From UHGV virus genome UHGV-0073937: a stretch of DNA of 22,825 nucleotides; one strand, written 5' to 3'. The stretch comes from a virus. Below are positions 4,625 through 21,021 of the stretch, piece after piece. A program made the position numbers and the translations under genes. The notes under the pieces were generated by a model. That model saw only the letters and a list, made by a program, of their open reading frames with translations. It was not told where the DNA came from and did no database searches. Numbering within the stretch: position 1 is the stretch's first letter; every line of letters starts with the position of its first letter.

Positions 4625-4700
4625 GGGTCCTTTCCGGCGATCCGACAGGTTACGGGGCGGCGACCTCGCGGTTTTTCGCTATTTATGAGATTTTTTGAGG
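4625..4700 (+). other. cos: Lambda-type cos site 1 (cosQ-cosN, start of cosB); cosN GGGCGGCGACCT at 4655-4666
   Basis: Sequence CGACAGGTTACGGGGCGGCGACCTCGCGGTTTTTCGCTATTTATGA matches lambda cohesive-end region from memory; located ~220 bp upstream of Nu1-like gene. Confidence 0.85.
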
Positions 4701-4882
4701 GGGTGGTTGTTGTTTAATTGTTTGGTATATCTAATTGATAAGTAAGGTGAAAATAAAATAAATACAACAACCTTACGATGTGCTTTGATGTCATTAATGT
4801 GAAAAAATTAAATGATATCAAATGGTTTTGTAAAAACACATGGTTGTTGTATCGCTTTTTATCGATGACTTATGGAGAGGAG

Positions 4883-7479: not shown

Positions 7480-8348
7480 AACGAACGCCTGTCCTGATTG
7501 ATGTGAACGGTGTTCCGCTTCGTGAGAGTCTCAGCTACAACGGTGGCGGCGCAGGATTTGGCGGGCAAATGGCGGAGTGGTTGCCACCGGCGCAGAGTGC
7601 CGATGCGGCCCTGCTGCCCGCGTTGCGTCTGGGGAATGCCCGGGCAGATGATCTGGTGCGCAATAACGGAATAGCGGCTAATGCGGTTGCCCTGCATAAG
7701 GATCACATTGTCGGGCATATGTTTCTGATCAGCTACCGTCCGAACTGGCGCTGGCTGGGGATGCGGGAGACCGCAGCAAAAAGCTTTGTCGATGAGGTGG
7801 AGGCGGCCTGGTCGGAATACGCCGAAGGGATGTTTGGCGAGATCGACGTGGAAGGAAAACGCACGTTCACGGAATTTATCCGTGAAGGTGTGGGCGTTCA
7901 TGCGTTTAACGGCGAAATCTTTGTGCAGCCGGTCTGGGATACAGAAACCACGCAGTTATTCCGTACGCGTTTTAAAGCTGTGAGTCCGAAACGGGTGGAC
8001 ACGCCTGGACACGGTATGGGGAACCGTTTTCTGCGGGCCGGTGTGGAGGTCGATCGATATGGCCGTGCCGTCGCGTACCATATCTGTGAGGATGATTTTC
8101 CGTTCTCTGGTAGTGGACGATGGGAACGGATCCCGCGTGAACTTCCCACCGGGCGTCCGGCCATGCTGCATATTTTCGAGCCGGTGGAGGACGGGCAGAC
8201 CCGTGGGGCTAATCAGTTTTACAGCGTCATGGAACGGCTGAAGATGCTCGATTCCCTGCAGGCAACACAGCTTCAGTCGGCCATAGTGAAGGCGATTTAT
8301 GTCTATCATCTCACCGTAGTTGCCCGCATCGTTCGCCAACTCCACTGA
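7476..8348 (+). pseudogene. B: Portal protein (lambda gpB-like) N-terminal fragment, truncated by island insertion at ~8301
   Basis: First ~275 codons collinear with lambda gpB (GNARADDLVRNNG, FEPVEDGQTRGAN, QSAIVKA); after codon AIY the frame reads into unrelated sequence and stops at 8348. Confidence 0.85.
8289..8301. repeat. Left copy of 13-bp imperfect direct repeat (AAGGCGATTTATG) = putative att core (attL)
   Basis: Matches AAGGCGATGTATG at 18579-18591 (12/13); both copies lie exactly at the breakpoint in the portal reading frame. Confidence 0.65.
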
Positions 8349-8424
8349 AACCCTTGCTGCGTCTGGAATGTCGTTTTCCATACTTTTGATGACCGTTCAT
8401 CACCCTTCCAGTTTTTCGCGGTTT

Positions 8425-8478
8425 TGTGTATTGCAATGTGTATTGCAAATTGGCGATCGGGATGGGTGTGTATTGCAA
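8425..8478. repeat. Three copies of TGTGTATTGCAA (candidate integrase arm-type binding sites) upstream of int
   Basis: Perfect 12-mers at 8425-8436, 8437-8448, 8467-8478; two related copies (GTGTATTGCA) at 18483-18506 near other island end. Confidence 0.55.
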
Positions 8479-8496
8479 ATCTCTTGAGGGCTTTTA

Positions 8497-9738
8497 ATGG
8501 CTATTGAAAACAAACTCAGTGACAAACTGTTAAAGAGTCTTGTCGGAAAACGGCAGGACAAACAAAAAACAATAGCGGATGGGCGCGGGTTGTCTGTGCG
8601 TGTAAGCATGGTTGGGGGGATCAGCTTTGTTTTTTACTATCGTCTTGGTGGCAGGGAATCCCCTCCGGTATGGCTTACACTTGGTCGCTATCCTGACATG
8701 TCTCTTGCAACGGCCAGGCGCATGCGTGATCAGTGCCGTGAATGGCTGGCTGAAAATCTGGACCCCCGCAGGCAAATAAAACTTGCTGCCGAAAAAACTA
8801 TGCAACCAGTGACCGTAAGGGATGCGCTGTTTTACTGGTACGACAATCACGCCACAACAGCCAGAAAAGAGCATGAATATTTAATAAAACGATTTGAAAA
8901 GCATATCTTCCCCTATATCGGTGATATGGCTATAGAACAGTGCAAATTACACACATGGCTTACCGTCTTTGACAGGATCAAAAAAAATGCGCCTGTTATG
9001 TCTGGTGCAATTTTTCTTGATATCAAACAGGCGTTGCGTTTTTGTCGCGTCAGGCAATACATCGCGTGCGATCCCTTTGGAGATATTAACGTAAGTTATG
9101 TCGGGGGCTCATCCGGTATAAGGGATCGCGTTCTTAATATCAATGAAACCGCTGATGTATGGTCTTATGCTTACGGTAATAATTTGCTAACTCTGTCATC
9201 AATATATAACCGAAGAATAATGGTTATCTGCCTGGTGTTTGGTTGCCGACAGCAGGAGGCGAGGCTATCCACCTGGGACGAATGGGATTTAAAAAACTGG
9301 GTATGGACAGTCCCAAAAGAGCACAGCAAAAACAAGGAGGCTATAGTAAGGCCTGTTCCTGACGGAATAAAACAATGGATCGTTAATCTTTACGCAGAAA
9401 CAAAAAATCGCGGTTATGTTGTCGGTTGTGCTTTGCAAAGGGCGACAATAACAGGGGCTGCAAACAGAATATGCAGGCGTCTTGGTCATGATACTAATGG
9501 CTTGTGGTGCATACATGATTTCAGGCGCACATTTTCCACTACGCTTAATGATATGGGGGCGGATCCTTATATTGTCGAACTTCTTTTAGGTCATAAAGTG
9601 AAAGGGGTTGCTGGTGTTTACAATAAAAGCAGGCATATAAAGAAAAAACTTGAGGTGCTTAATATGTGGGTTAATTACCTTAATACGATAGCAGGATTTA
9701 ACAACAACGTTATCGAGCTTAATAAAGAGGTGGTGTGA
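8497..9738 (+). CDS. int: Tyrosine recombinase / integrase, P4-type
   Basis: 413 aa; N-terminal arm-binding-like region (GRGLSVRVS...GGISFVFYYR); C-terminal catalytic region with HDFRRTFST...LLGH...GVYNKS; adjacent to island boundary. Confidence 0.9.
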   Translation: MAIENKLSDKLLKSLVGKRQDKQKTIADGRGLSVRVSMVGGISFVFYYRLGGRESPPVWLTLGRYPDMSLATARRMRDQCREWLAENLDPRRQIKLAAEKTMQPVTVRDALFYWYDNHATTARKEHEYLIKRFEKHIFPYIGDMAIEQCKLHTWLTVFDRIKKNAPVMSGAIFLDIKQALRFCRVRQYIACDPFGDINVSYVGGSSGIRDRVLNINETADVWSYAYGNNLLTLSSIYNRRIMVICLVFGCRQQEARLSTWDEWDLKNWVWTVPKEHSKNKEAIVRPVPDGIKQWIVNLYAETKNRGYVVGCALQRATITGAANRICRRLGHDTNGLWCIHDFRRTFSTTLNDMGADPYIVELLLGHKVKGVAGVYNKSRHIKKKLEVLNMWVNYLNTIAGFNNNVIELNKEVV

Positions 9739-9739
9739 T

Positions 9740-9997
9740 ATGGCAATTTATTCTCTTGTTGATGAAAACGATTTGCGCACAATGAAGGACATTGATCGGT
9801 TCATTCGTGAAAAAGAGTGCATAGCACTTACCACGCTGGCAAACTCAACACGCTGGAAAATGGAGCAGGCAGGTAAATTCCCGCGACGTATCAAGATCGG
9901 TGAACGTGCTGCAGGGTATCGACTTTCAGAGGTTCAGGCATGGATCCGTGGTGAGTGGCATCCTGGATGGAAACCTGGAAAAACAAAACAGCAATAA
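9740..9997 (+). CDS. alpA: AlpA-family transcriptional regulator / excisionase-like protein
   Basis: 85 aa; HTH region IALTTLANSTRWKMEQAGKFPRRIKIGERAAGYRLSEVQAWI resembles AlpA/HTH_17; start ATG overlaps int stop (coupled). Confidence 0.7.
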   Translation: MAIYSLVDENDLRTMKDIDRFIREKECIALTTLANSTRWKMEQAGKFPRRIKIGERAAGYRLSEVQAWIRGEWHPGWKPGKTKQQ

Positions 9998-10010
9998 CCA
10001 GTAAATAATG

Positions 10011-10033
10011 CCCCTCATCACGAGGGGTTTTTT
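10011..10033 (+). terminator. Rho-independent terminator (CCCCTC-ATCAC-GAGGGG + T6)
   Basis: Perfect 6-bp GC stem then TTTTTTG immediately after alpA stop. Confidence 0.7.
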
Positions 10034-10053
10034 GTCTATAAGGTAAAAACGCG

Positions 10054-10632
10054 ATGAATAAAAATATTGCCGTGACGGGCAAGGGGTACGCTCGTCCAGT
10101 GAAAAAATTCTGCGATATTCGTGATCTCGTCGTTCTGCGCTTTGATAGTGTGAACGTTCGTGTGGTGTATCTGAACGGCGATCCGTGGTTTGTTGCAAAA
10201 GATGTTTGTGCTGCGCTGGAACTAACCAATTCGCGTACGGCGTTGCAGATGCTTGATGATGATGAAAAGGGAGTAAATTTAACTTACACCCCAGGAGGAA
10301 ATCAGAATATGAGAATTATCTCTGAGTCAGGTTTCTACAAACTAATAGCCCGCAGCCGCAAAGCAACGACGCCTGGCACATTTGCTCATCGTTTCAGTAA
10401 CTGGGTATTCAGAAATGTGATACCAGGTATCAGAAAAACGGGGACTTATGGTATCCCGTGGGGTGCATTACAGGATTTTTCCCGCCGTAAAGAGCAATAT
10501 CAAATAAGTGCCAGCGAGAAGGGGAGAGAGCTACAGGCATGTAAGCGCAAAAAGCGTGAGCTGGAGGAAGAAGAAAAAACGCTGATACGTGAATATCAGC
10601 CTGAGTTTTACTTTGGTAACCGCATTCAGTGA
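10054..10632 (+). CDS. Bro-N domain protein (putative antirepressor-like)
   Basis: 192 aa; N-terminal region (VVYLNGDPWFVAKDVCAALELTNSRTALQMLDDDEKG...RIISESGFYKLIARSRKATT...FSNWVFRNVIP) typical of Bro-N; charged coiled C-terminus. Confidence 0.65.
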   Translation: MNKNIAVTGKGYARPVKKFCDIRDLVVLRFDSVNVRVVYLNGDPWFVAKDVCAALELTNSRTALQMLDDDEKGVNLTYTPGGNQNMRIISESGFYKLIARSRKATTPGTFAHRFSNWVFRNVIPGIRKTGTYGIPWGALQDFSRRKEQYQISASEKGRELQACKRKKRELEEEEKTLIREYQPEFYFGNRIQ

Positions 10633-10661
10633 CAAAACAAAGGCGACCGGGGGCGGTCGCC
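10630..10661 (-). terminator. Hairpin terminator for leftward small-gene operon (GGCGACCG-GGGG-CGGTCGCC; T-rich on minus strand)
   Basis: 8-bp perfect GC-rich stem; minus-strand downstream sequence TTTGTTTTGTC; sits between convergent genes. Confidence 0.55.
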
Positions 10662-10725
10662 AGTGGGAAAACACTAAACATAAGCACGAGGATGATAGCC
10701 GCTATCAGGTTGGTGGGCAATGTGA

Positions 10726-10935
10726 TCAGCCTGGTGGGCGGTTCCTGTTAGCTTTCATTACCCGGGGCTGTTTATTGAGAAACTCATCAAGCGCAAATTT
10801 TGTAGGCGCTGGTTCTGTATTTGGTGGCATTTGTTTAGCGTGTGCCTTTTCTTTCTGGCGTGCAACAATGCTCTGTAAAAGCAATCTTCGTTGTTCTGCG
10901 AAAATCTCTTCAGTGGATAGGTATTTTTTGCTCAT
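10726..10935 (-). CDS. Hypothetical small protein (leftward switch operon, second gene)
   Basis: 69-aa ORF downstream of 10993..11172 on same strand, followed by hairpin terminator. Confidence 0.45.
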   Translation of the reverse strand: MSKKYLSTEEIFAEQRRLLLQSIVARQKEKAHAKQMPPNTEPAPTKFALDEFLNKQPRVMKANRNRPPG

Positions 10936-10992
10936 AGTGCCGACCTGTAAAGCAATGCGCCGGAGTACCTCACACCACAGCGCTGATAGTGA

Positions 10993-11172
10993 TTATTCTT
11001 GCTCTTTAGCCTTGCGTCGCTGGCGGTATTCAACTTCTCGCTTTAATGCTGCTGTTACAAACTGCCCTGTACTTTCACCAGGCATTTTTACCGCCTCAAC
11101 ATTGTTCATAACTTCATGCGGAACCCTTGCCGCAACTGTTTGTGATTTTGCGTTTACTGCTTTTGTCGCCAT
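10993..11172 (-). CDS. Small putative DNA-binding regulator (possible RHH-type repressor), first gene of leftward operon
   Basis: 59-aa ORF derived by manual translation (below ORF-track size cut-off): MATKAVNAKSQTVAARVPHEVMNNVEAVKMPGESTGQFVTAALKREVEYRQRRKAKEQE; diverges from operator repeats. Confidence 0.45.
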   Translation of the reverse strand: MATKAVNAKSQTVAARVPHEVMNNVEAVKMPGESTGQFVTAALKREVEYRQRRKAKEQE

Positions 11173-11222
11173 GTTGTGTACCCCTCACAAAAAACAAATG
11201 CAGTATGCAGGAAAAAAAACAA

Positions 11223-11274
11223 GTGTTCAACACTTGACGTGTTCAACACCTGGGTTTAAATTGGTGTTCAACAC
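11223..11274. promoter_or_regulatory. Operator/promoter region: three perfect copies of near-palindromic 11-mer GTGTTCAACAC with candidate rightward sigma70 promoter
   Basis: Copies at 11223-11233, 11239-11249, 11264-11274; TTGACG (11234-11239) and TTTAAAT (11255-11261) fit -35/-10 with ~16-nt spacer; lies between divergent operons. Confidence 0.65.
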
Positions 11275-11371
11275 CTTGTTGGTGCAAGGTGCAGAAACGA
11301 CGAAACCCGGCAGTGCGCTAACACTAACCGGGCTTCTAACCACCAACGATAGCAACAGTATCGAGGTAGCT

Positions 11372-11575
11372 ATGAGAAATCATACCACACACCCGCAAGG
11401 GCGGGGCTCGCACAACCTGAATAAATACATCTGGCGTTTTATCGCCCTGAGCACCGCACAACCACGCGTAATACACATCGAGGCCGCCAGCGAACAGGAA
11501 GCCCGGCTGCAATCCCCAACTGGCTGCGTGATGATATTCGCCGCCCGTATTCGTCAGGAGGTATGCCGTGCTTAA
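11372..11575 (+). CDS. Small protein, first gene of rightward operon (possibly Icd-like)
   Basis: 67 aa from ATG 11372 with SD GAGG; MRNHTTHPQGRGSHNLNKYIWRFIALSTAQPRVIHIEAASEQEARLQSPTGCVMIFAARIRQE; family assignment from memory only. Confidence 0.45.
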   Translation: MRNHTTHPQGRGSHNLNKYIWRFIALSTAQPRVIHIEAASEQEARLQSPTGCVMIFAARIRQEVCRA

Positions 11576-11753
11576 AACCTTTCGTGTATTTGCTCGTGCG
11601 GTTAACCCACTAGGCCACACAATTGGTATCGCTCAGAACGTGAAGGCTGTTAATGTTCAGACGGCTATTGCTGCGGTGAGAAGCGAATCATCAGAATATG
11701 GCTTATCACAAGTCATTATCTCAGCAGTGTATGAATTAAAAGAGGTGCATTAA
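11568..11753 (+). CDS. Hypothetical protein
   Basis: 61-aa ORF; start overlaps upstream stop (coupled), part of tightly packed operon. Confidence 0.4.
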   Translation: MLKTFRVFARAVNPLGHTIGIAQNVKAVNVQTAIAAVRSESSEYGLSQVIISAVYELKEVH

Positions 11754-11944
11754 TGCAGGAAATTACATTACACGAAGCCGCTGAACGTGCGCACCAGACA
11801 GAAATTGTTTGCCGCCTTCTTGAGTTATACCCGAACAAAATTACAGATGCTGATATATCCGCGCTGGCGAGCCTACTGGCGCGCCTTTCGGGAAGTGTCG
11901 CTAGTTTCCTGATTGAGGAAGAAAGTAAGCTGGTGGGGGATTAA
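11753..11944 (+). CDS. Hypothetical protein
   Basis: 63-aa ORF; ATG overlaps previous stop (TAATG). Confidence 0.4.
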   Translation: MQEITLHEAAERAHQTEIVCRLLELYPNKITDADISALASLLARLSGSVASFLIEEESKLVGD

Positions 11945-12166
11945 ATGAATACAGAACGAGAAGTCTTTTTTAAATTGTTAGCATGTGCAGAGAGTTCATT
12001 AACTTTAAATAATTCAGCAAAAGCAATATTAAATATGTGGCTTGATTGCATAAATGACAATGAAGATGCAAATATTGCTTATGGCCTGTTGTCACTTATT
12101 GATGAAGCAGCAGAGAAACTTAATGACACAATAAATAGTGCCCTGCTATCAAATAAGTCGAGTTAA
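11945..12166 (+). CDS. Hypothetical protein
   Basis: 73-aa ORF; start overlaps previous stop; AT-rich codon usage suggests separate origin. Confidence 0.4.
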   Translation: MNTEREVFFKLLACAESSLTLNNSAKAILNMWLDCINDNEDANIAYGLLSLIDEAAEKLNDTINSALLSNKSS

Positions 12167-12183
12167 GTCGAAGAATAAATAAT

Positions 12184-12483
12184 ATGGAAATGAAAAATTC
12201 TGGCTTTATTGCCAGCGGCCCCGCTCGGCCTGAATTTATGAACGGCGATATTTACCGCGATAAATACGGCGGCACGGTAACGATTAAAGGCGTGGCAGAA
12301 CGGCGCATCACTTACCGCCGTGAGGGGTATAGCTATGACTGCGTGATGCCTGTTTATCAGTTCCGGCGTGATTTTTCCCTGGTATATGCCGCACCCCGCA
12401 GTAAGCCCATCAGCAGGGAAAAAGCGCGGGGAAACATCCAGAAAATGAAAAGCATGATTAACGCATTCAGGGGCAAAAAATGA
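12184..12483 (+). CDS. Hypothetical protein
   Basis: 99-aa ORF; stop overlaps start of replication protein (ATGA). Confidence 0.45.
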   Translation: MEMKNSGFIASGPARPEFMNGDIYRDKYGGTVTIKGVAERRITYRREGYSYDCVMPVYQFRRDFSLVYAAPRSKPISREKARGNIQKMKSMINAFRGKK

Positions 12484-14231
12484 AACTGGCACCGAACTTA
12501 AAAAAACAGCCACGCGACAGACTGACAGAGGTAATCATCTTTGCAGGTAGTGATGCGTGGAGCCATGCGAAAGAGTGGCAGGAATGGGCGGGTAAACATA
12601 TTGCCGCCGACGATGTGCCGCCTGTCGTGCTGGCTGATGAGCAACTGAAAAACATCACCGATTACCGGATCATTGATGAAGATCGTCAGTGTGTGCGTGT
12701 TTACCGCGCAGGACATATCACAGAGCACAGCATGACGCAGATTGTTACGTTACTGGCTGTGGCTGGAGTGAAGACCGTACACGAATACGCGGGGATTACT
12801 GACACCAGCCCAGTGGATTTATCCGACCAGTTGCCGCGACTCAAAGAGGAATGCGAGCGTGGGGAAAGTCTGGTGCTTAATCTTCCGACGAAGCAAAAGG
12901 CGCAACTTTCACAGATGGCAGACAGTGAACGTGCACAACTACTTGCCGATCGCTTTGATGGTGTGTGTGTTCATGCAGAAAGTGAAATCGTCCACGTATG
13001 GCGCGGCGGGGTATGGTGTCCGGTCAGCACAATGGAGCTGAGCCGCGAAATGGTGGCGATCTATTCAGAGCACAGGGCCACGTTCAGCAAACGTGTAATC
13101 AATAACGCCGTGGAAGCGTTAAAAGTTATTGCCGACCCCATGGGGGAGCCGTCCAGTGATTTGCTACCGTTCACTAATGGTGTGCTTAACCTGAAAACGG
13201 GAGAATTTTCTCCGCACTCGCCGGAGCACTGGAGCACCACGCACAATGGCATTGAGTACACGCCACCAGTAGCAGGGGAAAACATCCGCGATAATGCGCC
13301 AAATTTCCATAAATGGCTTGAACATGCTGCAGGAAAAGACCCGCGCAAGATGATGCGTATATGTGCCGCGTTATACATGATTATGGCGAACCGCTACGAC
13401 TGGCAGATGTTCATTGAGGCCACCGGAGACGGGGGAAGCGGAAAGAGCACATTTACCCATATTGCCACCCTGCTTGCTGGCAAACAGAACACCGTAAGCG
13501 CAGAGATGACATCACTCGATGATGCAGGTGGGCGCGCGCAGGTTGTCGGGAGTCGTCTTATCGTCCTTGCCGATCAGCCGAAATATACGGGTGAAGGCAC
13601 TGGCATCAAGAAAATCACGGGAGGCGATCCCGTCGAAATTAACCCGAAATATGAGAAGCGATTCACGACGATAATAAGGGCGGTGGTACTGGCGACCAAT
13701 AACGACCCTATGATCTTTACCGAACGGGCCGGAGGTGTGTCACGCCGTCGGGTGATTTTCCGGTTCGACAACATTGTAAGGGAGGACGAAAAAGACAAGG
13801 AATTACCGGAAAAGATAGCGGCAGAAATCCCCGTAATTATCCGCCGCTTGCTGGCTAACTTTGCTGACCCTGAAAAGGCACGAGCTTTACTACTGGAACA
13901 GCGAGACGGTGATGAAGCTCTGGCAATAAAGCAGCAAACGGATCCGGTTGTTGAGCTTTGCGCGGCGCTGGAGTTTCTGGAGGAAGCTCGTGGGCTAATG
14001 ATGGGCGGTGGTGGTGACTCCGTGAAGTACACGACCAGAAACAGCCTTTACCGTGTCTATATGGCCTTCATGGCATACACAGGAAAGGGGAAATGTTTGA
14101 GCGTGAATGAGTTCGGAAAGGCTATGAGGTCAGCGGCGAAAGTTTACGGATATGAATATATTACTCGAAAAGTTAAGGGAGTCACGCAGACCAACGCAAC
14201 GACTACTGATGATTGCGATGCGTTTTTATAA
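12480..14231 (+). CDS. Replication protein: primase C-terminal/D5-N domain with SF3-type P-loop NTPase (pri-rep-like)
   Basis: 583 aa; Walker A GDGGSGKST, downstream Walker B-like RLIVLADQ; architecture typical of P4-alpha/PICI pri-rep proteins; followed by iterons. Confidence 0.8.
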   Translation: MKLAPNLKKQPRDRLTEVIIFAGSDAWSHAKEWQEWAGKHIAADDVPPVVLADEQLKNITDYRIIDEDRQCVRVYRAGHITEHSMTQIVTLLAVAGVKTVHEYAGITDTSPVDLSDQLPRLKEECERGESLVLNLPTKQKAQLSQMADSERAQLLADRFDGVCVHAESEIVHVWRGGVWCPVSTMELSREMVAIYSEHRATFSKRVINNAVEALKVIADPMGEPSSDLLPFTNGVLNLKTGEFSPHSPEHWSTTHNGIEYTPPVAGENIRDNAPNFHKWLEHAAGKDPRKMMRICAALYMIMANRYDWQMFIEATGDGGSGKSTFTHIATLLAGKQNTVSAEMTSLDDAGGRAQVVGSRLIVLADQPKYTGEGTGIKKITGGDPVEINPKYEKRFTTIIRAVVLATNNDPMIFTERAGGVSRRRVIFRFDNIVREDEKDKELPEKIAAEIPVIIRRLLANFADPEKARALLLEQRDGDEALAIKQQTDPVVELCAALEFLEEARGLMMGGGGDSVKYTTRNSLYRVYMAFMAYTGKGKCLSVNEFGKAMRSAAKVYGYEYITRKVKGVTQTNATTTDDCDAFL

Positions 14232-14239
14232 AAAATGGC

Positions 14240-14480
14240 AATGGTTATCTACCTTGTCTACCTGACTGAAAGAAAATACTTTTATTTCAATGTATTAATG
14301 CAGGTAGATAACTATTTTTCACTGTCTACCTGTTATCTACCTTATCTACCCATTTTTGTAGACAGGTAAGGAGACGGGTAGAGATGAGGTAGACAGCTAT
14401 TTGGGGCTGTCTACCTCCCTGAAACCCGCGCCATTACTGGCCTGATAACTAATCAGGTAGACAAGGTAGACAAGGTGGTG
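14240..14480. repeat. Iteron array (>=10 copies of GGTAGACA / TATCTACC in both orientations) = putative origin of replication
   Basis: e.g. TTATCTACCTTGTCTACC, CAGGTAGATAAC, CTGTCTACCTGTTATCTACCTTATCTACC, GGTAGACAAGGTAGACAAGG; non-coding, directly downstream of rep gene. Confidence 0.75.
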
Positions 14481-14520
14481 GCGCACAAAAAACTTTTTAA
14501 ACGAGGGGGTAAAAATAAAA

Positions 14521-14778
14521 ATGCACACATCAGGAAAACTGAACAAACATATAAAGCCACATTATCGCGCCCTTGATATGGCTGAACACTGGCTAAGGGT
14601 GGCGATTAAGGCAATAGACCGCAACGCCGGGGAAGGATACGCGAAAGCACATCCCGAACTGATAAGCGCATTCATGACAACGGCGGCTGCAAACTTTGCC
14701 GCGCTGACCGAACGGGAGATTGCCGAAGCGGAGGAAGTGACAACCATCAATATTAAGTCCGGAGAGCAGGCAGCTTGA
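14521..14778 (+). CDS. Hypothetical protein
   Basis: 85-aa ORF; stop overlaps SSB start. Confidence 0.45.
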   Translation: MHTSGKLNKHIKPHYRALDMAEHWLRVAIKAIDRNAGEGYAKAHPELISAFMTTAAANFAALTEREIAEAEEVTTINIKSGEQAA

Positions 14779-15224
14779 CGGCGCAAATAGCAGCTTACGG
14801 GCGGCTGGTGGACGACCCACAGGTAAAACATACCAGCAAGGGAGCACCCATGACACTGGCACGGATGACGGTATCTTTGCCATGCAGCCAGGCAGATGAC
14901 GGAACGGCGACGATGTGGTTATCTGTCCTGGCGTTTGGCAGACAAGCCGACGCGCTGGCAAAGCATCACAAAGGCGAACTCCTGAGCGTGGCGGGTAATA
15001 TGCAGGTGAGCCAGTGGAGCGGACAGAACGGGGAAACGCGGCAGGGCTGGCAGGTTATCGCAGACAGCGTAATCAGTGCCAGAACGGTGCGACCGGGCGG
15101 CAAAAAAGGTCAACAGGGGCAGGCTACTGATGCACTGAACAGAGCAAAACAACAGGCAGATCAGCAAGGAAGCCATCCACCAGTGGGAGATAATGAGCAA
15201 TGGGGAGATGATATTCCGTTTTAA
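14775..15224 (+). CDS. ssb: Single-stranded DNA-binding protein homologue (SSB-like, TTG start)
   Basis: 149 aa; OB-fold-like N-terminus; Gln/Gly-rich linker; C-terminal acidic tip GDDIPF matching the SSB DDDIPF tail; SD GGAGAG 8 nt upstream of TTG. Confidence 0.75.
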   Translation: MTAQIAAYGRLVDDPQVKHTSKGAPMTLARMTVSLPCSQADDGTATMWLSVLAFGRQADALAKHHKGELLSVAGNMQVSQWSGQNGETRQGWQVIADSVISARTVRPGGKKGQQGQATDALNRAKQQADQQGSHPPVGDNEQWGDDIPF

Positions 15225-15243
15225 ATTCTGCAAACAAAAAGAT

Positions 15244-15268
15244 GCCGGAAAAAAATAGATTTTCCGGC
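15244..15268. terminator. Hairpin (GCCGGAAAA...TTTTCCGGC), possible terminator after ssb
   Basis: 9-bp inverted repeat; T-run better on minus strand so orientation ambiguous. Confidence 0.4.
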
Positions 15269-15435
15269 ATGCTACATAAATCCCGACCAAAGGAAGTAAA
15301 TACATTAACACGAATTATCAGCACTGAAGTTGTCACGGCATATTTTATACAACATTGCACTTGGTTGCATGTATTCGCATAGCAGACATCGGTAATAGAA
15401 TATATTCACAATTATTTGTAATGAATGTAAAGAGG

Positions 15436-16482
15436 ATGAGTATGGTTGATTTATATTCGCCTACACAGCTTGTGCAGGTGGCTAATGCTGAAGATGTGCA
15501 AAAAAAATTAAATGCGTTGTTTACCAGTTTGTTTTTCACTCGCTCGGTAATGTTTGAATCGAGAGACATTATTCTTGATACGATCGACGATCCAAATATC
15601 CCGATCGCGGCGTTTTGCTCTCCTATGGTGGGCAGTAAAGTTTCACGAGATGAGGGATACGAATCAAAAACAATTCGCCCTGGCTATATGAAACCGAAAA
15701 GCAGCATTGATCCAAATAAGTTAGCTGTGCGCCCTGCTGGTGTATCACCTGAACAATACAATGCTTTTGGGGCGCGTAATATTAAAGTTAAACAGGCGAT
15801 TGTAAATCAGGCTAAAGCTATACGTGCACGTATTGAATGGCTTGCTGTTCAGGCAATCACAACGGGGAAAAATATCATTGAGGGCGATGGTATTGAACGT
15901 TATGAACTGGACTGGAATATAAAACCACAAAATATTATCACGCAGTCTGGCGGTGCTGAGTGGTCAGGTAAGGATAAAGAAACTTTTGATCCAAATGATG
16001 ATATTGAGAGCTACGCAGAATTTAGTGAGGGCGTCACTAATATCATCATTATGGGCGGTAATGTATGGAAGAAATACCGTTCATTCAGAGCGATAAAAGA
16101 GGCTCTGGATACCCGCCGTGGTTCTAATTCCGAACTGGAAACGGCCCTTAAAGACCTTGGTGATTCGGTGAGTTTTAAAGGGTATATGGGCGATGTTGCG
16201 ATTGTTGTTTACAGCGGACGTTATACCGACGAGGACGGAACTGAAAAACATTTCCTTGATCCTGATTTGATGGTGCTTGGCAATACGGCTCTTCAGGGGA
16301 TTGTCGCCTATGGCGGTATTCAGGATCCGGAGCTAATCCGAATGGGGCTGACTAAAGCCGAACTTGCACCGAAAAACTATATTGTGCCTGGTGATCCGGC
16401 TATTGAATATGTGCAGACACATTCAGCACCACAGCCAATACCGGCCCGCATCAATCGTTTTGTTACCGTTCGCATTGGCTAA
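15436..16482 (+). CDS. Major capsid protein, divergent lambda gpE homologue (island-encoded)
   Basis: 348 aa; collinear similarity with lambda E across C-terminal two-thirds (NIITQSGGAEWSGKDKETFDPNDDIE, DTRRGSNSELETALKDLG, YMGDVAIVVYSG, LMVLGNTA, VPGDPAIE); start MSMVDLY parallels lambda MSMYTTA; start could be 15442. Confidence 0.85.
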   Translation: MSMVDLYSPTQLVQVANAEDVQKKLNALFTSLFFTRSVMFESRDIILDTIDDPNIPIAAFCSPMVGSKVSRDEGYESKTIRPGYMKPKSSIDPNKLAVRPAGVSPEQYNAFGARNIKVKQAIVNQAKAIRARIEWLAVQAITTGKNIIEGDGIERYELDWNIKPQNIITQSGGAEWSGKDKETFDPNDDIESYAEFSEGVTNIIIMGGNVWKKYRSFRAIKEALDTRRGSNSELETALKDLGDSVSFKGYMGDVAIVVYSGRYTDEDGTEKHFLDPDLMVLGNTALQGIVAYGGIQDPELIRMGLTKAELAPKNYIVPGDPAIEYVQTHSAPQPIPARINRFVTVRIG

Positions 16483-16491
16483 GGGGGAGCA

Positions 16492-16833
16492 ATGGCTACT
16501 CATTACACTGAACTCATGGCTGGCACTGAAGCACTGGTGACTACGCTGGGGATATTTTCAGCTAATAAAGGGGTAATTCCTGCATTTACGCCACTGATGC
16601 AGGAAGATGCAACAGGTGCACTGGTGGTATGGGATGGTTCGAGCGTAGGTAAAGCGGTTTATGTTTCCGCTGTACAAATCGACACAGCGAAAAAAACACA
16701 GGCACAGGTTTATAAGACAGGTGTTTTAAATGTTGATGCTCTGAACTGGCCTGAGTCTGTAAAAGAACTGTCGGCAAAGGTTGCCGCGTTTGTTGGCTCA
16801 GGTATTTCTGTTCAGCCGCTGGCTCGTGTGTAA
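16492..16833 (+). CDS. Head decoration protein, divergent lambda gpD homologue (island-encoded)
   Basis: 113 aa; VVWDGSSVGKAVYVSAVQIDT...YKTGVLNVDALNWPES parallels lambda [22 protein letters not shown]...[16 protein letters not shown]; strong SD AAGGGGGAG. Confidence 0.75.
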   Translation: MATHYTELMAGTEALVTTLGIFSANKGVIPAFTPLMQEDATGALVVWDGSSVGKAVYVSAVQIDTAKKTQAQVYKTGVLNVDALNWPESVKELSAKVAAFVGSGISVQPLARV

Positions 16834-16844
16834 AGGGGGATACA

Positions 16845-17228
16845 ATGCAGAATCATTACAATGACCTTAAGCCAATTGCCGAAATGATGTATCCGGATCC
16901 AGCAGTAGAGGAATTAAAGGCTATTGCTGACAAAATGCGTTTAAGTGAACGCCTTGTTGATATGAATCAGGTGATGGAACTTACTACCCTTAGCCGTCGC
17001 ACATTGCTAAACCTTGAGGCTCGCGGAGAGTTCCCCGAACGCGTACAGGTTACGGAAGGGCGTAAGGCCTGGTATTTAAGTGAAGTGATCGACTGGATAA
17101 ACAATATTCCTCGATCTTCTGAATATTGCCGCGTACCTGTCCCAAAAAAGCCAGATGCGGCGCTATGCCTCAAGATTGAGCGTGTACGTCGCAATGCACG
17201 GGATGGTCGCTATAAGTTGATTGGTTGA
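16845..17228 (+). CDS. AlpA-like HTH domain protein immediately upstream of island cos
   Basis: 127 aa; central HTH resembling AlpA/HTH_17 (MNQVMELTTLSRRTLLNLEARGEFPERVQVTEGRKAWYLSEVIDWI); strong SD. Confidence 0.55.
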   Translation: MQNHYNDLKPIAEMMYPDPAVEELKAIADKMRLSERLVDMNQVMELTTLSRRTLLNLEARGEFPERVQVTEGRKAWYLSEVIDWINNIPRSSEYCRVPVPKKPDAALCLKIERVRRNARDGRYKLIG

Positions 17229-17254
17229 TGAAATTAGGGCCCGTTCTGGCTGGC

Positions 17255-17330
17255 GGGTCCTTTCCGGCGATCCGGTAGGCTACGGGGCGGCGACCTTGCG
17301 GGTTTTCGCTATTTATGAGCCTTTTTCGGG
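17255..17330 (+). other. cos: Lambda-type cos site 2 (island cos): cosN GGGCGGCGACCT at 17285-17296
   Basis: ~65 bp (17255-17319) near-identical to 4625-4688 including cosQ/cosN; downstream cosB-equivalent sequence differs from cos 1. Confidence 0.8.
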
Positions 17331-17429
17331 TGCTGGTGGTGGTTTTGTTGTTCGCTCTATCTCTATGAATAAAAAGGAAAAGATAAAGCCAATACACCAA
17401 CCTGAAACATTACTTAAGTGGGGATATTG

Positions 17430-17972
17430 ATGAAATCGCACCTGATGAACAAAAAAAACATGGCGCAAAGCTGCCGTGTAAGTGCGACAGCGTTCGACAA
17501 GTGGGGAGTGACTCCCGTTGAACGTAAAGGCCGCGAGGCGTTTTATGATGTTGCCAGCGTAATAGACAATCGGGTTAGCAATGCAATTAACCAGATTACA
17601 GACGACAAAGGCGAGATTGATGATGATGAACTCCTACGAGTCAGGATCAGATTGCTGACAGCACAGGCAGAGGCGCAGGAGCTTAAAAACGAGCGCGAAC
17701 GCGGCGACGTTATTGATACAGCGTTTTGTATATACGTGCTTTCAAAATTGGCGAGTCAGATTTCTTCAATCATGGACAGCCTGCCGCTTGCCATGACAAG
17801 GAAGTTTCCCGACATGAAGCCGTCTATGCTGGATGGACTGAAAAAAGAAGTTATCAGAGCCTGTAACGCATGCGCAAAACTTGACGAAAACATACCGCTG
17901 ATGCTGTCCGATTATCTGATGGAAACTGCCGGAAACGTACCGGATAAGTTGCAGCCGAATAAAGATAAGTAA
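17430..17972 (+). CDS. Terminase small subunit, divergent Nu1-like (island-encoded)
   Basis: 180 aa from ATG 17430; homologous to 4883..5389 product and lambda Nu1 (ATAFDKWGVTPVERKGREAFYDV; AFCIYVLSKLASQISSIMDSLPLAMTRKFPDM) but clearly divergent. Confidence 0.85.
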   Translation: MKSHLMNKKNMAQSCRVSATAFDKWGVTPVERKGREAFYDVASVIDNRVSNAINQITDDKGEIDDDELLRVRIRLLTAQAEAQELKNERERGDVIDTAFCIYVLSKLASQISSIMDSLPLAMTRKFPDMKPSMLDGLKKEVIRACNACAKLDENIPLMLSDYLMETAGNVPDKLQPNKDK

Positions 17973-17983
17973 CGTAGTACGCT

Positions 17984-18286
17984 ATGACTGAATCCGAAAT
18001 ACTGCGATTAATCCGCCGTGCTTGTGGAATCAGCAAGCAGCATGACGAACAGGCCACGCAGCCGGACAGCGTGACCGCAGATAATTATGTGCGTGTAGTG
18101 GCTGAGGTGATGCGCCGTGACGGTATTGAGCTTAACGGCGTGGATATGCGCAACATACGAACAAGAGTCCTTGAGTTGCTGGCATATCGTCGCCGTAATG
18201 ATGATTCAGCCCACCAGCCAAATCAGCACAGCAACGACAGAATAGCCCGACACAGAAAAACCACGAATATGGGGTTTTTGTTATGA
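17984..18286 (+). CDS. Hypothetical protein (last island gene)
   Basis: 100-aa ORF; Arg-rich; no recognised motif. Confidence 0.4.
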   Translation: MTESEILRLIRRACGISKQHDEQATQPDSVTADNYVRVVAEVMRRDGIELNGVDMRNIRTRVLELLAYRRRNDDSAHQPNQHSNDRIARHRKTTNMGFLL

Positions 18287-18482
18287 CATGGTCATGATGA
18301 CCACTCATACAAAACAGGTAAAGCCCACCAGCCTGATTAAAGGTTAACCGGAAAAAAGCCAGGTATCCAATCTCGATATGGGGATCCCTATATCGACATT
18401 AACGCCCACTAAAACTGTGCATATATGCATAGAAAAAGCATCCACCAGCTTTATGACGGATGCCGCTCATCTTATAAATAAT

Positions 18483-18506
18483 CGTGTATTGCAGTGTGTA
18501 TTGCGA
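18483..18506. repeat. Two copies of GTGTATTGCA-type repeat near right island end (candidate arm sites)
   Basis: CGTGTATTGCAGTGTGTATTGCGA; same motif as 8425-8478. Confidence 0.5.
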
Positions 18507-18578
18507 CTCCTTTAAACGATAGGTCTGAGCATTCGTAATGTACTGTTTTTAAATTTTATTTTTTCCTGTCTTTTCATA

Positions 18579-18591
18579 AAGGCGATGTATG
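18579..18591. repeat. Right copy of 13-bp direct repeat (AAGGCGATGTATG) = putative att core (attR)
   Basis: 12/13 match to 8289-8301; portal reading frame (KAMYAATIESEL) resumes exactly here. Confidence 0.65.
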
Positions 18592-19336
18592 CCGCCACCA
18601 TTGAGAGTGAGCTGGATACGCAGTCAGCGATGGATTTTATTCTGGGCGCGAACAGTCAGGAGCAGCGGGAAAGGCTGACCGGCTGGATTGGTGAAATTGC
18701 CGCGTATTACGCCGCAGCACCGGTCCGGCTGGGAGGCGCAAAAGTGCCGCACCTGATGCCGGGTGACTCACTGAACCTGCAGGCTACTCCGTGTTTGAGC
18801 AGTCACTGCTGCGGTATATCGCTGCCGGGCTGGGTGTCTCGTATGAGCAGCTTTCCCGGAATTACGCCCAGATGAGCTACTCCACGGCACGGGCCAGCGC
18901 GAACGAGTCGTGGGCGCACTTTATGGGGCGGCGAAAATTCGTCGCATCCCGTCAGGCGAGTCAGATGTTTCTGTGCTGGCTGGAAGAGGCCATCGTTCGC
19001 CGCGTGGTGACGTTACCTTCAAAAGCGCGCTTCAGTTTTCAGGAAGCCCGTAGTGCCTGGGGGAACTGCGACTGGATAGGCTCCGGTCGTATGGCCATCG
19101 ATGGTCTGAAAGAAGTTCAGGAAGCGGTGATGCTGATAGAAGCCGGACTGAGCACCTACGAGAAAGAGTGCGCGAAACGCGGTGACGACTATCAGGAAAT
19201 TTTTGCCCAGCAGGTCCGTGAAACGATGGAGCGCCGCGCGGCTGGTCTTAAACCGCCCGCCTGGGCGGCTGAGGCATTTGAATCCGGGCTGCGACAATCA
19301 ACAGAGGAGGAGAAGAGTGACAGCAGAGCTGCGTAA
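18579..19336 (+). pseudogene. B: Portal protein (lambda gpB) C-terminal fragment, additionally frameshifted near 18767-18790
   Basis: MYAATIESELDTQSAMDFILGANSQEQRERLTGWIGEIAAYY... then frame change; second frame continues VFEQSLLRYIAAGLGVSYEQL... to the overlap with C; matches lambda gpB C-terminus. Confidence 0.85.
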
Positions 19337-20636: not shown

Positions 20637-20645
20637 GGGATGTTT

Positions 20646-20978: not shown

Positions 20979-20996
20979 CCTTACCCTTCATCACTA

Positions 20997-21021
20997 AAGG
21001 CCGCCTGTGCGGCTTTTTTTA
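20997..21021 (+). terminator. Hairpin + T-run between D and E (GGCCGC-CTGT-GCGGC + T7)
   Basis: GC stem followed by TTTTTTT; may act as attenuating terminator or RNA stability element. Confidence 0.5.

What the first reader, a model, noticed from the sequence alone, without database searches (positions are those of the whole stretch)
17255..17972. Island carries its own lambda-type cos with helper-identical cosQ/cosN but a different cosB, plus a divergent Nu1-like small terminase
A ~65-bp segment (17255-17319) is near-identical to the prophage cos region (4625-4688), including the lambda cohesive-end 12-mer GGGCGGCGACCT. Downstream, where Nu1 binding sites lie in lambda, the two copies are unrelated. 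Each cos is followed by a Nu1 homologue (4883..5389 and 17430..17972); the two proteins share the overall fold signature but diverge strongly. The island has no large terminase. This is the arrangement expected if the island TerS recognises island cosB and recruits the helper gpA to cut at the shared cosN, redirecting packaging to island DNA.
Basis: partly seen in the sequence, partly recalled or inferred. Interest (0 to 1): 0.9.

Follow-up and report, generated by a model that had tools for sequence, protein, structure and literature searches.

The report
Satellite island's own cos and small terminase
A 10-kb phage satellite sitting inside a prophage's portal gene carries its own lambda-type DNA-packaging site and its own intact small terminase; this is a widespread, already catalogued kind of element whose packaging mechanism is plausible but untested.

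Summary
Window 17255-17319 matches 4625-4689 at 60/65 bases, including cosQ (GGGTCCT) and the 12-base end GGGCGGCGACCT. Each copy is followed by a Nu1-family small terminase (46% identical). The island has no large terminase.

Two points are wrong or incomplete. First, the regions downstream of cosN are not unrelated: they stay in register for 84 more bases at 68% identity. R3- and R2-like 9-mers sit at the same distances from cosN and differ only by T-to-G changes. Second, the neighbouring prophage arm is probably not the island's co-evolved helper. The flanks are a hybrid of two prophage types, and the portal's 3' part is frameshifted.

The island is a helper-embedded PICI integrated in portal gene B, a described class. 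Its cos+terS module occurs in 763 of 5,426 complete E. coli genomes. In the four other embedded copies examined, the helper has a lambda-type cosB unrelated to the island's. The island TerS is full length, unlike Rpp, and under purifying selection (dN/dS 0.15; 0.04 in the DNA-binding domain). That domain is co-conserved with invariant cosB blocks.

Most likely the island TerS binds island cosB and recruits helper TerL. This is inferred, not shown. It is a new member of a known kind, of moderate interest.

The parts
4625..4689 (+). Prophage cosQ (GGGTCCT, 4625-4631), cosN (12-base overhang 4655-4666) and I2-like segment
   Evidence: Sequence read directly. Collinear with the lambda-type cos of locus L001.
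4705..4850 (+). Prophage cosB: GGTTGTTGT at 4705-4713 (+, R3 position, bp 51-59), 4764-4772 (-, R2 position, bp 110-118) and 4842-4850 (+, R1-like)
   Evidence: The 9-mer occurs 4 times in the window, all within 4420-4850, against 0.18 expected. It is the same 9-mer at the same position as phage N15 R3 (N15 R3 mapped to bp 48-60, PMC9026076). The +/-/+ orientation matches R3-I1-R2-R1 (PMC9026076).
4883..5389 (+). Prophage small terminase (168 aa), a mosaic of an N15-type DNA-binding domain and a PhiR12-type C-terminal half
   Evidence: PF07471. C-terminal half 91% identical to PhiR12 phages and N-terminal half N15-like.
5361..7289 (+). Prophage large terminase gpA (642 aa)
   Evidence: GpA_ATPase and GpA_nuclease Pfam domains. 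65% identical to the lambda-type TerL of L001.
8289..8301 (+). attL core AAGGCGATTTATG inside portal gene B (codon ~275)
   Evidence: Alignment of both portal fragments to an intact portal gene. The match to the uninterrupted portal of strain Z247 stops exactly at 8301.
8302..18578 (+). Island (~10.3 kb helper-embedded PICI): int 8497-9738, alpA 9740-9997, Bro-N 10054-10632, DUF4222 12184-12483, primase 12480-14231, SSB 14775-15224, gpE-like capsid 15436-16482, gpD-like 16492-16833, AlpA-like 16845-17228, cos, terS, orf100
   Evidence: Pfam and PHROGs assignments. Same gene order in relatives annotated by PGAP.
17255..17319 (+). Island cosQ (17255-17261), cosN overhang (17285-17296) and conserved CGCTATTTATGAG (17307-17319)
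   Evidence: 60/65 identical to the prophage cos. Conserved across 56 distinct family sequences, except for the overhang itself, which varies.
17335..17352 (+). Island R3-position block GGTGGTGGTTTTGTTGTT (bp 51-68)
   Evidence: Invariant or nearly so in 56 distinct cos sequences while flanking bases vary. GGTGGTGGT is also at bp 51-59 in Enterobacter/Citrobacter relatives whose TerS is only ~60% identical.
17357..17370 (+). Conserved block CTATCTCTATGAAT between the R3 and R2 positions (lambda I1 position)
   Evidence: Conserved in the family alignment. No IHF consensus match with up to 1 mismatch, so its function is undetermined.
17394..17406 (-). Island R2-position block ACACCAACCTGAA (bp 110-122; reverse complement contains GGTTGGTGT)
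   Evidence: All 13 columns invariant across 56 distinct E. coli family sequences. Match reported at 17394-17402 on the minus strand. Not conserved in the Enterobacter/Citrobacter group.
17430..17972 (+). Island small terminase, 180 aa, Nu1 family, full length
   Evidence: PF07471, 85.8 bits against a cutoff of 30. phrog_57 matches residues 1-176. 35 distinct variants, all 180 aa. dN/dS 0.15. A profile built without lambda hits lambda TerS 1-98, E 4e-6.
17984..18286 (+). Conserved 100-aa ORF directly after terS, function unknown
   Evidence: phrog_1561, unknown function. No Pfam hit. A hypothetical-protein ORF follows terS in all annotated relatives; its homology to orf100 was not tested.
18579..18591 (+). 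attR core AAGGCGATGTATG; portal gene resumes here
   Evidence: Alignment to an intact portal gene.
18579..19336 (+). 3' part of portal gene B, frameshifted by a 22-bp deletion at 18782/18783
   Evidence: 22-base gap relative to the KE47 portal gene. The reading frame is split into ORFs 18585-18875 and 18791-19336.

Best explanation
The segment is the packaging module of a helper-embedded PICI. It consists of a lambda-type cos site followed by the satellite's own complete Nu1-family small terminase.

Proposed mechanism:
1. After induction and excision, the island replicates into concatemers.
2. Island TerS dimers use an N15-like winged-helix domain to bind the island-specific elements at the R3 position (GGTGGTGGT..., bp 51-68) and the R2 position (bp 110-122).
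3. Through the retained C-terminal segment, island TerS brings a helper phage's large terminase to the generic lambdoid cosN.
4. Island DNA is then cut and packaged into helper-built capsids.

This would be a TerS swap on a cos phage. It differs from the Rpp route, in which a shorter protein must borrow the helper's TerS.

What is shown: the anatomy, the family membership, purifying selection, and the co-conservation of the DNA-binding domain with the cosB blocks. What is inferred: DNA binding, TerL recruitment and independence from helper TerS.

The likely natural helpers are lambda/DLP12-type prophages with a lambda cosB. The Qin-type arm that lies upstream in this window is probably not one.
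For: TerS identity and integrity:
- Full-length TerS: PF07471 above threshold and phrog_57 over residues 1-176.
- A profile of island, Qin-type and N15 TerS, built without lambda, aligns residues 5-84 to lambda TerS 1-98 (6HN7_B), E 4.4e-6.
- The AF2 secondary structure is strand, helix, helix, hairpin, long helix, as expected for a winged HTH.
- C-terminal residues conserved with lambda, N15 and Qin-type TerS: L137, K138, N146, A149, P156, L159, Y162.

Selection and co-conservation:
- 35 distinct proteins, all 180 aa. In positions 21-45, 23 of 25 are invariant.
- dN/dS is 0.15 overall and 0.04 in residues 1-50, with dS ~0.47.
- Invariant cosB blocks lie at bp 51-68 and 110-122 in 56 distinct cos sequences.

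Covariation of recognition helix and R-site:
- lambda: SIRTIQNW with CGTTTCC.
- N15 and Qin-type: SVQAFDKW with GGTTGTTGT.
- E. coli PICI: SATAFDKW with GGTGGTGGT.
- Enterobacter/Citrobacter PICI: GVTAFDKW with GGTGGTGGT.

Distribution:
- No phage among 50,697 records has this TerS at >60% identity.
- In the four other embedded copies examined, the helper cosB is lambda-type (GGCGTTTCCGTTC) and the island cosB is GGTGGTGGT.
- The module is in 763 of 5,426 complete genomes.
Against: - There is no experimental or structural evidence here for DNA binding or TerL binding.
- The island TerS C-terminal 38 residues are equally distant from the Qin-type (12/38) and lambda-type (15/38) TerS. The TerS-TerL contact is believed to be type-specific.
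- Island C-terminal variants do not track helper type. Four helpers with the identical lambda-type TerS carry three different island C-termini.
- The experimentally studied relative EcCICFT073 strictly needs helper TerS (PMC6092414, PMC6739421).
- Some family members have a different 12-base overhang from their embedding helper. It is unclear which TerL cuts those.
- The AF2 model is weak (pLDDT 68, pTM 0.29) and the fold search gave no significant match.
- In this window the adjacent prophage has a frameshifted portal and mixed arms, so it cannot itself be a competent helper.
Confidence: 0.55

Rival explanations
1. Rpp-like heterocomplex. The island TerS co-assembles with the helper's TerS through the conserved central self-association region. 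The mixed complex loses affinity for helper cosB, gains affinity for island cosB, and reaches TerL through the helper TerS C-terminus. Helper TerS would then be required.
For: - This is the precedent in E. coli PICIs: Rpp binds helper TerS, and helper TerS is essential (PMC6739421, PMC6092414).
- terS occupies the same position as rpp, directly after the PICI cos (PMC9026076, Figure 1 legend).
- The central region, about residues 70-130, is the part best conserved between island, Qin-type, N15 and lambda TerS.
- The island C-terminus is not matched to the helper type.
Against: - The island protein keeps the C-terminal ~40 residues that Rpp proteins lack (PMC9026076).
- It has no detectable sequence similarity to any Rpp chain in the PDB, although entry 6HN7 is present.
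- Rpp contacts the helper DNA-binding domain. Here that domain differs in wing length from lambda's, by a 5-residue deletion.
Confidence: 0.22
2. Interference first. The island TerS mainly titrates helper TerL, or poisons helper terminase, to block phage packaging. Island DNA would be packaged through whatever terminase recognises the generic cosQ-cosN, with cosB contributing little.
For: - PICIs generally combine packaging redirection with interference (PMC6739421).
- EcCICFT073 cos sites cloned on plasmids are transferred by lambda at reduced levels even without Rpp (PMC6092414).
- N15-type terminase is promiscuous and packages lambda DNA (PMC9026076).
Against: - The R3- and R2-position blocks are invariant, and dN/dS in the DNA-binding domain is 0.04. 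This argues that sequence-specific DNA recognition is what selection maintains.
Confidence: 0.13
3. Passive carry-over. The cos and terS are late genes captured from a former helper and no longer function. Any mobilisation would be by the helper's own TerS acting on a shared cos.
For: - HE-PICIs and PICIs do capture helper late-gene clusters (PMC10111431).
- In this window the island and prophage cosB are related at 68% identity.
- The surrounding prophage is decayed.
Against: - All 35 distinct family proteins are intact at 180 aa, with dN/dS 0.15.
- The module is kept in 763 genomes, in embedded and chromosomal PICIs at at least four different sites.
- This TerS lineage is absent from sequenced phages at >60% identity.
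- The gene order (E, D, HTH, cos, terS) is not the phage order.
Confidence: 0.05

Closest known systems
Rpp system of EcCICFT073-type E. coli PICIs (Fillol-Salom et al. 2019, PMC6739421; Murialdo and Feiss 2022, PMC9026076)
   Same: - Gram-negative PICI with a capsid gene, a decoration gene, cos, and then a winged-helix packaging protein.
- cosQ and cosN like lambdoid helpers, with a private cosB.
- The proposed binding site is at the R3 position, about bp 48-65.
- The outcome is redirection of the helper terminase to satellite DNA.
   Different: - The protein here is a 180-aa bona fide Nu1-family TerS with the C-terminal segment that Rpp (144-153 aa) lacks.
- It has no detectable sequence similarity to Rpp.
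- Rpp needs helper TerS as a bridge to TerL, whereas this protein may not.
- The E. coli members also have a conserved R2-position block, which is reported absent from Rpp-type PICI cos sites.
TerS of pac-type SaPIs (SaPI1, SaPIbov1; cited in PMC6739421 and PMC6092414)
   Same: - The satellite encodes a homologue of the helper's small terminase.
- That homologue recognises the satellite's own packaging site and uses the helper's large terminase.
- The satellite has no TerL.
   Different: - SaPIs use headful (pac) packaging in Gram-positive hosts, with an unrelated TerS family and a separate inhibitor (Ppi).
- Here packaging is cos-type, with defined cohesive ends and a lambda-like cosQ-cosN-cosB layout.
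Phage N15 gp1 and cos (Feiss et al. 2015, as reviewed in PMC9026076)
   Same: - N15 gp1 is the closest phage TerS (47.6% identity).
- It has the same short-wing DNA-binding domain (...AFDKWGV.PVE..GRE.F.DV).
- Its R3 lies at bp ~50-58 and is a G/T-rich 9-mer.
   Different: - N15 R3 is GGTTGTTGT and the island's is GGTGGTGGT.
- The recognition helix has Q in N15 where the island has T.
- N15 gene 1 is followed by its own TerL.
- N15 cosB is R3 only.
Helper-embedded PICIs (HE-PICI/HES, e.g. 11capE; Tommasini, Mageeney and Williams 2023, PMC10111431)
   Same: [quoted passage not shown]
- The site is in the portal at about Phage_portal_2 profile position 240.
- It has the int-alpA, Bro, replication and late zones.
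- A repeated motif lies next to int.
- The integrase is 54% identical to that of a capsid-E-embedded element.
   Different: - That paper states that 11capE lacks terS and shares 258 bp at 90% identity with its helper's cos.
- This element carries terS and a private cosB.
- In this window the two flanks derive from different prophage types.
SaPIbov5 and satellite P4 (cos satellites without TerS; SaPIbov5 cited in PMC6092414; P4 from general knowledge)
   Same: - Small satellites with cohesive-end sites that are cut by the helper's terminase.
   Different: - Those carry the helper's own cos recognition elements and no terminase subunit.
- Here cosB is private and a TerS is encoded.

Membership tests
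Lambda-type small terminase (gpNu1; Pfam PF07471, phrog_57) | Sequence match to the family profile above the curated threshold | tested here: met
   PF07471 at 85.8 bits against a cutoff of 30, E 3.3e-24. phrog_57 at E 5e-51 over residues 1-176.
Lambda-type small terminase (gpNu1; Pfam PF07471, phrog_57) | N-terminal winged helix-turn-helix DNA-binding domain homologous to gpNu1 1-68 | tested here: met
   A profile without lambda aligns residues 5-84 to lambda TerS 1-98 (6HN7_B), E 4.4e-6, and more weakly to 1J9I. The AF2 secondary structure fits a wHTH. The Foldseek search itself was not significant.
Lambda-type small terminase (gpNu1; Pfam PF07471, phrog_57) | C-terminal ~40-residue segment that binds the large terminase | tested here: inconclusive
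   The segment is present and shares a conserved pattern (L137, K138, N146, A149, P156, L159, Y162) with lambda, N15 and Qin-type TerS. It matches neither helper type closely (12/38 and 15/38). Binding cannot be tested with these tools.
Lambda-type small terminase (gpNu1; Pfam PF07471, phrog_57) | Gene lies just downstream of cos and just upstream of the large terminase gene | tested here: not met
   The gene lies 145 bp downstream of cosN, but it is followed by a 100-aa ORF and attR, not by a TerL gene. This is the satellite arrangement, not the phage one.
Rpp (redirecting phage packaging) proteins | Short protein (144-153 aa) lacking the TerL-binding C-terminus | tested here: not met
   The protein is 180 aa and gives a full-length TerS profile match. 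Rpp lengths are taken from PMC6739421 and PMC9026076.
Rpp (redirecting phage packaging) proteins | Sequence similarity to RppA, RppB or RppC | tested here: not met
   No Rpp chain was found at E up to 10, with the single sequence or with two profiles, although entry 6HN7 (the RppC-TerS complex) is in the library.
Rpp (redirecting phage packaging) proteins | Encoded immediately downstream of the PICI cos site | tested here: met
   The start codon is at bp 146 from the cohesive end. The rpp start in PICI-C is at bp 102 (PMC9026076).
Rpp (redirecting phage packaging) proteins | Forms a heterocomplex with helper TerS, and helper TerS is required for transfer | not testable with these tools
   This needs genetics or biochemistry.
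Gram-negative PICI / helper-embedded PICI | ~10-kb unidirectional element with int, alpA, primase-replicase, capsid homologue and terS | tested here: met
   Gene content and order. It matches the five-component PICI model of PMC10085698.
Gram-negative PICI / helper-embedded PICI | [quoted passage not shown] | tested here: met
   Portal gene B is split at 8301/18579, with a 13-bp att core. Portal residue ~275 corresponds to Phage_portal_2 profile position ~240, a site group reported in PMC10111431.
Gram-negative PICI / helper-embedded PICI | Integrase belongs to the HE-PICI integrase clade | tested here: inconclusive
   The integrase is 54% identical over its full length to that of a capsid-E-embedded element. 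No phylogeny was built.
Gram-negative PICI / helper-embedded PICI | Induced, packaged and transferred by a helper phage | not testable with these tools
   This needs induction and transduction assays.
Lambda-type cos site | cosQ 7-mer ~30 bp left of cosN, and a 12-base 5' overhang sequence | tested here: met
   GGGTCCT at 17255-17261 and GGGCGGCGACCT at 17285-17296. The spacing is identical to the prophage and to the lambda-type cos of L001.
Lambda-type cos site | TerS-binding R element at about bp 48-65, with an inverted second element | tested here: met
   Conservation footprints lie at bp 51-68 and 110-122. The positions equal those of GGTTGTTGT in the prophage and N15. Binding itself was not tested.
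Lambda-type cos site | IHF site (I1) between R3 and R2 | tested here: not met
   No WATCAANNNNTTR match with up to 1 mismatch lies between 17343 and 17394. The prophage has two such matches (4715-4727, 4728-4740), though such matches are not enriched overall. A conserved block of unknown role exists at 17357-17370.

The most novel reading that the evidence does not exclude
The PICI TerS lineage is a satellite-specific Nu1-family small terminase. By itself, without helper TerS, it retargets the large terminases of lambda-type phages to a private R3 element (GGTGGTGGT). This would be the first cos-phage equivalent of the SaPI TerS swap and would be mechanistically distinct from Rpp. The specificity change relative to N15-type terminases would be encoded by a Q-to-T change at one recognition-helix position, matched by T-to-G changes in the R elements.
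Probability: 0.4. Interest if true: 0.55.

Novelty: new member of a known kind. Interest (0 to 1): 0.35.

Why it matters
If the island TerS works alone with helper TerL, E. coli satellites would have two different ways of hijacking the same lambda-type terminase: a TerS swap and Rpp.

The helix/R-site covariation (lambda, N15-type, PICI-type) would give a compact natural system for dissecting cosB recognition. That question is still open for N15 and for Rpp (PMC9026076).

The module is common, in about 14% of complete E. coli genomes. It travels with cargo such as TIR-domain and abortive-infection genes in some relatives. Its packaging rules therefore bear on how such cargo spreads.

As it stands, the element type is already catalogued and nothing here is experimentally established.

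Tried and rejected
- Structure route. The AF2 model of island TerS from an 18-sequence alignment reached only pLDDT 68 and pTM 0.29. Foldseek against the PDB gave no hit with E below 0.1; the top hits were MerR-like wHTH proteins (CbpM, BrlR, BldC, RacA). I used it only for secondary structure.
- Search for Rpp similarity in the PDB, by phmmer and by two profiles: nothing found.
- Test for co-variation of the island TerS C-terminus with helper terminase type. Four embedded copies all sit in helpers with the identical lambda-type TerS (WP_000453587.1), yet carry three different island C-termini. The window's variant is also found next to a Qin-type TerL. The test neither supports nor excludes direct TerL binding.
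- IHF consensus scan: no site in island cosB, and matches are not enriched overall.
- Possible second cos, as in EcCICFT073. The partial cosN-like strings at 17045-17062 and 18921-18934 lie in coding sequence and have no cosQ. Rejected as chance.
- Promoter scan between the AlpA-like gene and terS: none found. terS is therefore probably read through cos from the upstream late genes.
- Rfam: only a cspA thermoregulator in the prophage arm. No C4/isrK-type immunity RNA reached the gathering threshold.
- Search for phages carrying the variant overhang GGGCGTCAGGCG: the best phage matches were 88% over 73 bases, and I did not resolve whether any phage shares it.
Full report
**What is in the window**

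The ORF map and profile searches show a lambdoid prophage late region, with these genes:
- lysis genes, then cos at 4625-4850
- a Nu1-family small terminase at 4883-5389
- gpA at 5361-7289, and W
- the first ~275 codons of portal gene B

A ~10.3-kb island interrupts this region. It carries the following:
- integrase 8497-9738, AlpA 9740-9997 and a Bro-N protein
- DUF4222, a D5/P4-type primase at 12480-14231, and SSB
- a gpE-like capsid protein at 15436-16482, 42% identical to the prophage gpE
- a gpD-like decoration protein and an AlpA-like protein
- the cos copy, a second Nu1-family gene at 17430-17972, and a 100-aa ORF

The portal gene resumes at 18579, followed by C, D and E. Aligning both portal fragments to an intact portal gene places the junctions at 8289-8301 (AAGGCGATTTATG) and 18579-18591 (AAGGCGATGTATG).

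**The observation**

The two cos copies are identical at 60 of 65 positions, in register. The 100 bases upstream match at only 27%. This is the longest direct repeat in the window. Both copies contain GGGTCCT and GGGCGGCGACCT. The two TerS proteins are 46% identical, E 2e-53, and both pass the Pfam threshold. No island ORF resembles a large terminase. These parts of the finding are correct.

One statement is wrong: that the regions downstream of cosN are unrelated. The repeat runs ungapped for 149 nt, and the 84 bases beyond the first 65 are 68% identical.

Numbering from the first base of the cohesive end, the prophage has GGTTGTTGT at three places:
- bp 51-59, plus strand
- bp 110-118, minus strand
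- bp 188-196, plus strand

The 9-mer occurs four times in the window, all within 4420-4850, against 0.18 expected. The plus/minus/plus order is that described for R3-I1-R2-R1 (PMC9026076).

The island has GGTGGTGGT at bp 51-59 and ACACCAACC (reverse complement GGTTGGTGT) at bp 110-118. In the lambda-type cos of locus L001, the R3 core CGTTTCC is at bp 53-59 and the inverted GGAAACG is at bp 114-120. All three cos sites therefore share one architecture.

**What the prophage cosB is**

Phage N15 has GGTTGTTGT at bp 50-58. This lies within the segment (bp 48-60) mapped as N15 R3 by mutagenesis (PMC9026076). N15 gp1 begins MAVLLNKSDMASSLGISVQAFDKWGV. The window's prophage TerS begins MAFLLNKSDMASSIGISVQAFDKWGV.

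The C-terminal half of the prophage TerS is instead 91% identical to the PhiR12 phages, and its TerL N-terminus is also PhiR12-like. The prophage TerS is therefore a mosaic: an N15-type DNA-binding domain paired with an N15-type cosB.

The island TerS is closest to N15 gp1 among phages (47.6% identity). No phage among 50,697 records reaches 60%.

**Family evidence**

A scan of IMG/VR returned 80 loci with island-type TerS at 79-100% identity. In 56 distinct upstream sequences:
- cosQ is conserved.
- The 12-base overhang varies, with at least seven versions.
- Four downstream blocks are invariant or nearly so: CGCTATTTATGAG, GGTGGTGGTTTTGTTGTT (bp 51-68), CTATCT.TATGAAT, and ACACCAACCTGAA (bp 110-122).

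The 35 distinct proteins are all 180 aa. In positions 21-45, 23 of 25 are invariant, while residues 136-180 vary most. dN/dS is 0.15 overall, 0.04 for residues 1-50 and 0.19 for the C-terminus, with dS about 0.47. The gene is not a remnant. Its DNA-binding domain is conserved together with the cosB blocks.

A more distant group from Enterobacter and Citrobacter (TerS ~60% identical, also embedded in a capsid gene) keeps GGTGGTGGT at bp 51-59 but not the R2-position block.

Across the four groups, the recognition helix tracks the R-site:

| Group | Recognition helix | R-site |
|---|---|---|
| lambda | SIRTIQNW | CGTTTCC |
| N15 / Qin-type prophage | SVQAFDKW | GGTTGTTGT |
| E. coli PICI | SATAFDKW | GGTGGTGGT |
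| Enterobacter/Citrobacter PICI | GVTAFDKW | GGTGGTGGT |

The residue that consistently separates the PICI type from the N15 type is T versus Q. By the alignment, this position aligns with lambda R17. That this residue sets specificity is my inference.

**Is it a TerS or an Rpp?**

The experimentally studied E. coli PICIs encode Rpp. Rpp is 144-153 aa and lacks the TerL-binding C-terminus. It forms a heterocomplex with helper TerS, which is strictly required (PMC6739421, PMC6092414, PMC9026076).

The island protein differs:
- It matches the TerS profile end to end.
- It retains a C-terminal pattern shared with lambda, N15 and Qin-type TerS.
- It shows no similarity to any Rpp chain in the PDB, even though the RppC-TerS entry 6HN7 is in the library and its TerS chain is hit.

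It fails the membership test for Rpp and passes it for Nu1-family TerS. It lacks only the phage-typical adjacent TerL gene.

The AF2 model is of low confidence, and the fold search was uninformative.

**Context and the identity of the helper**

The island is a helper-embedded PICI of the class described by Tommasini, Mageeney and Williams (PMC10111431). It is integrated in, and co-oriented with, a lambdoid late gene. The site is at about position 240 of the Phage_portal_2 profile, one of their site groups. Its integrase is 54% identical to that of a capsid-E-embedded element.

The cos+terS module occurs at 80% coverage or more in 763 of 5,426 complete E. coli genomes. It is found in these settings:
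- portal-embedded elements
- capsid-embedded elements
- chromosomal PICIs next to tRNA-Pro
- chromosomal PICIs between roxA and phoQ in O157:H7 and other strains

Earlier surveys already note that some Gram-negative PICIs carry a terS homologue (PMC6092414), and they treat terS as a core PICI component (PMC10085698).

In the four other embedded copies whose helper cos I read (APEC O2-211, SCU-106, GPEC1209, KE47), the helper has the same lambda-type Nu1 protein and a lambda cosB, unrelated to the island's.

In the window:
- The left arm (1-8301) is 99.7% identical to a Qin-like prophage with an intact portal in strain Z247.
- The right arm (18560-22825) is 96% identical to the lambda/DLP12-type helpers and only 67% identical to Z247.
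- The right portal fragment carries a 22-bp deletion that shifts the frame.

The upstream cos, terS and terL are therefore probably not this island's co-evolved partner. This prophage could not supply a portal.

**Mechanism**

The best-supported reading (confidence 0.55) is a TerS swap on a cos system. Island TerS dimers bind the private R3 and R2 elements and bring a helper TerL to the generic cosN.

The main rival (0.22) is an Rpp-like mixed complex with helper TerS. In its favour, the island C-terminus matches neither helper type well (12/38 and 15/38). Its variants also do not track helper type.

A mainly interfering role (0.13) and a passive remnant (0.05) are less likely, given the conservation pattern. 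None of these can be separated without experiments. The single most decisive experiment is island transfer from a helper deleted for its own terS.

**Verdict**

The element belongs to a known, catalogued kind. The untested possibility of a self-sufficient cos-type satellite TerS, with a readable specificity code, is moderately interesting.

Noticed in passing
window 1-8301 versus 18560-22825: The two prophage arms flanking the island come from different prophage types. The left arm is 99.7% identical to a Qin-like prophage (strain Z247, intact portal). The right arm is 96% identical to lambda/DLP12-type helpers and only 67% identical to Z247. Excision would create a chimeric portal gene. This could reflect recombination through island copies or att sites, or an assembly mis-join.
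   Followed up: partly
window 18782/18783: A 22-bp deletion relative to intact portal genes shifts the frame of the portal 3' fragment, giving ORFs 18585-18875 and 18791-19336. The prophage would be portal-defective even after island excision.
   Followed up: yes
loci L001, L003, L013, L016 and others (cos upstream of terS); window 17285-17296: Within the PICI TerS family the 12-base cohesive-end sequence varies: GGGCGGCGACCT, GGGCGTCAGGCG, GGGCGGCAGACG, GGGCGGAAGGCG, GGGCGGCTGACG and others. cosQ and the cosB blocks stay fixed. In SCU-106 and KE47 the island overhang differs from that of the embedding helper. Which terminase cuts these variants is unexplained.
   Followed up: partly
window 8425-8480 and 18495-18508: TGTGTATTGCAAAT-like 14-mers occur three times just upstream of int and once near attR. 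They are probably integrase arm-type sites, as in the doubled attP motif reported for HE-PICIs.
   Followed up: no
window 14302-14331 and 14387-14416: Two 30-nt near-palindromic repeats (AGGTAGA.A.CTATTT....CTGTCTACCT) lie 85 bp apart, just downstream of the primase gene. PICI replication origins are reported at this position.
   Followed up: no
window 4420-4428: A fourth exact GGTTGTTGT lies ~235 bp to the left of cosN, inside a minus-strand YlcI/YnfO-like ORF. It may be an extra TerS site or a chance match.
   Followed up: no
window 4883-5389: The prophage TerS is a mosaic. Residues ~1-60 are N15 gp1-like, while residues 81-168 are 91% identical to PhiR12-type phages, whose own N-terminus and cosB (CCGGACATG repeats) are quite different. 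This is a natural domain swap between DNA recognition and TerL binding.
   Followed up: partly
window 15436-16833: The island encodes its own gpE-like major capsid protein (42% identical to the prophage gpE) and a gpD-like decoration protein, but no portal, protease or scaffold. [quoted passage not shown] Their role here is open.
   Followed up: no
window 2291-2706: Rfam cspA thermoregulator match (113.7 bits) in the prophage arm, in front of a cold-shock protein gene, as in Qin-type prophages.
   Followed up: no
loci L003 (4988-5863, 13438-14199) and L092 (5559-6916): Related islands carry likely defence cargo. One has a TIR-domain protein in the Bro zone and an abortive-infection protein after terS (KE47). 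The Enterobacter/Citrobacter group has FRG-domain and DUF3892 genes after terS.
   Followed up: no
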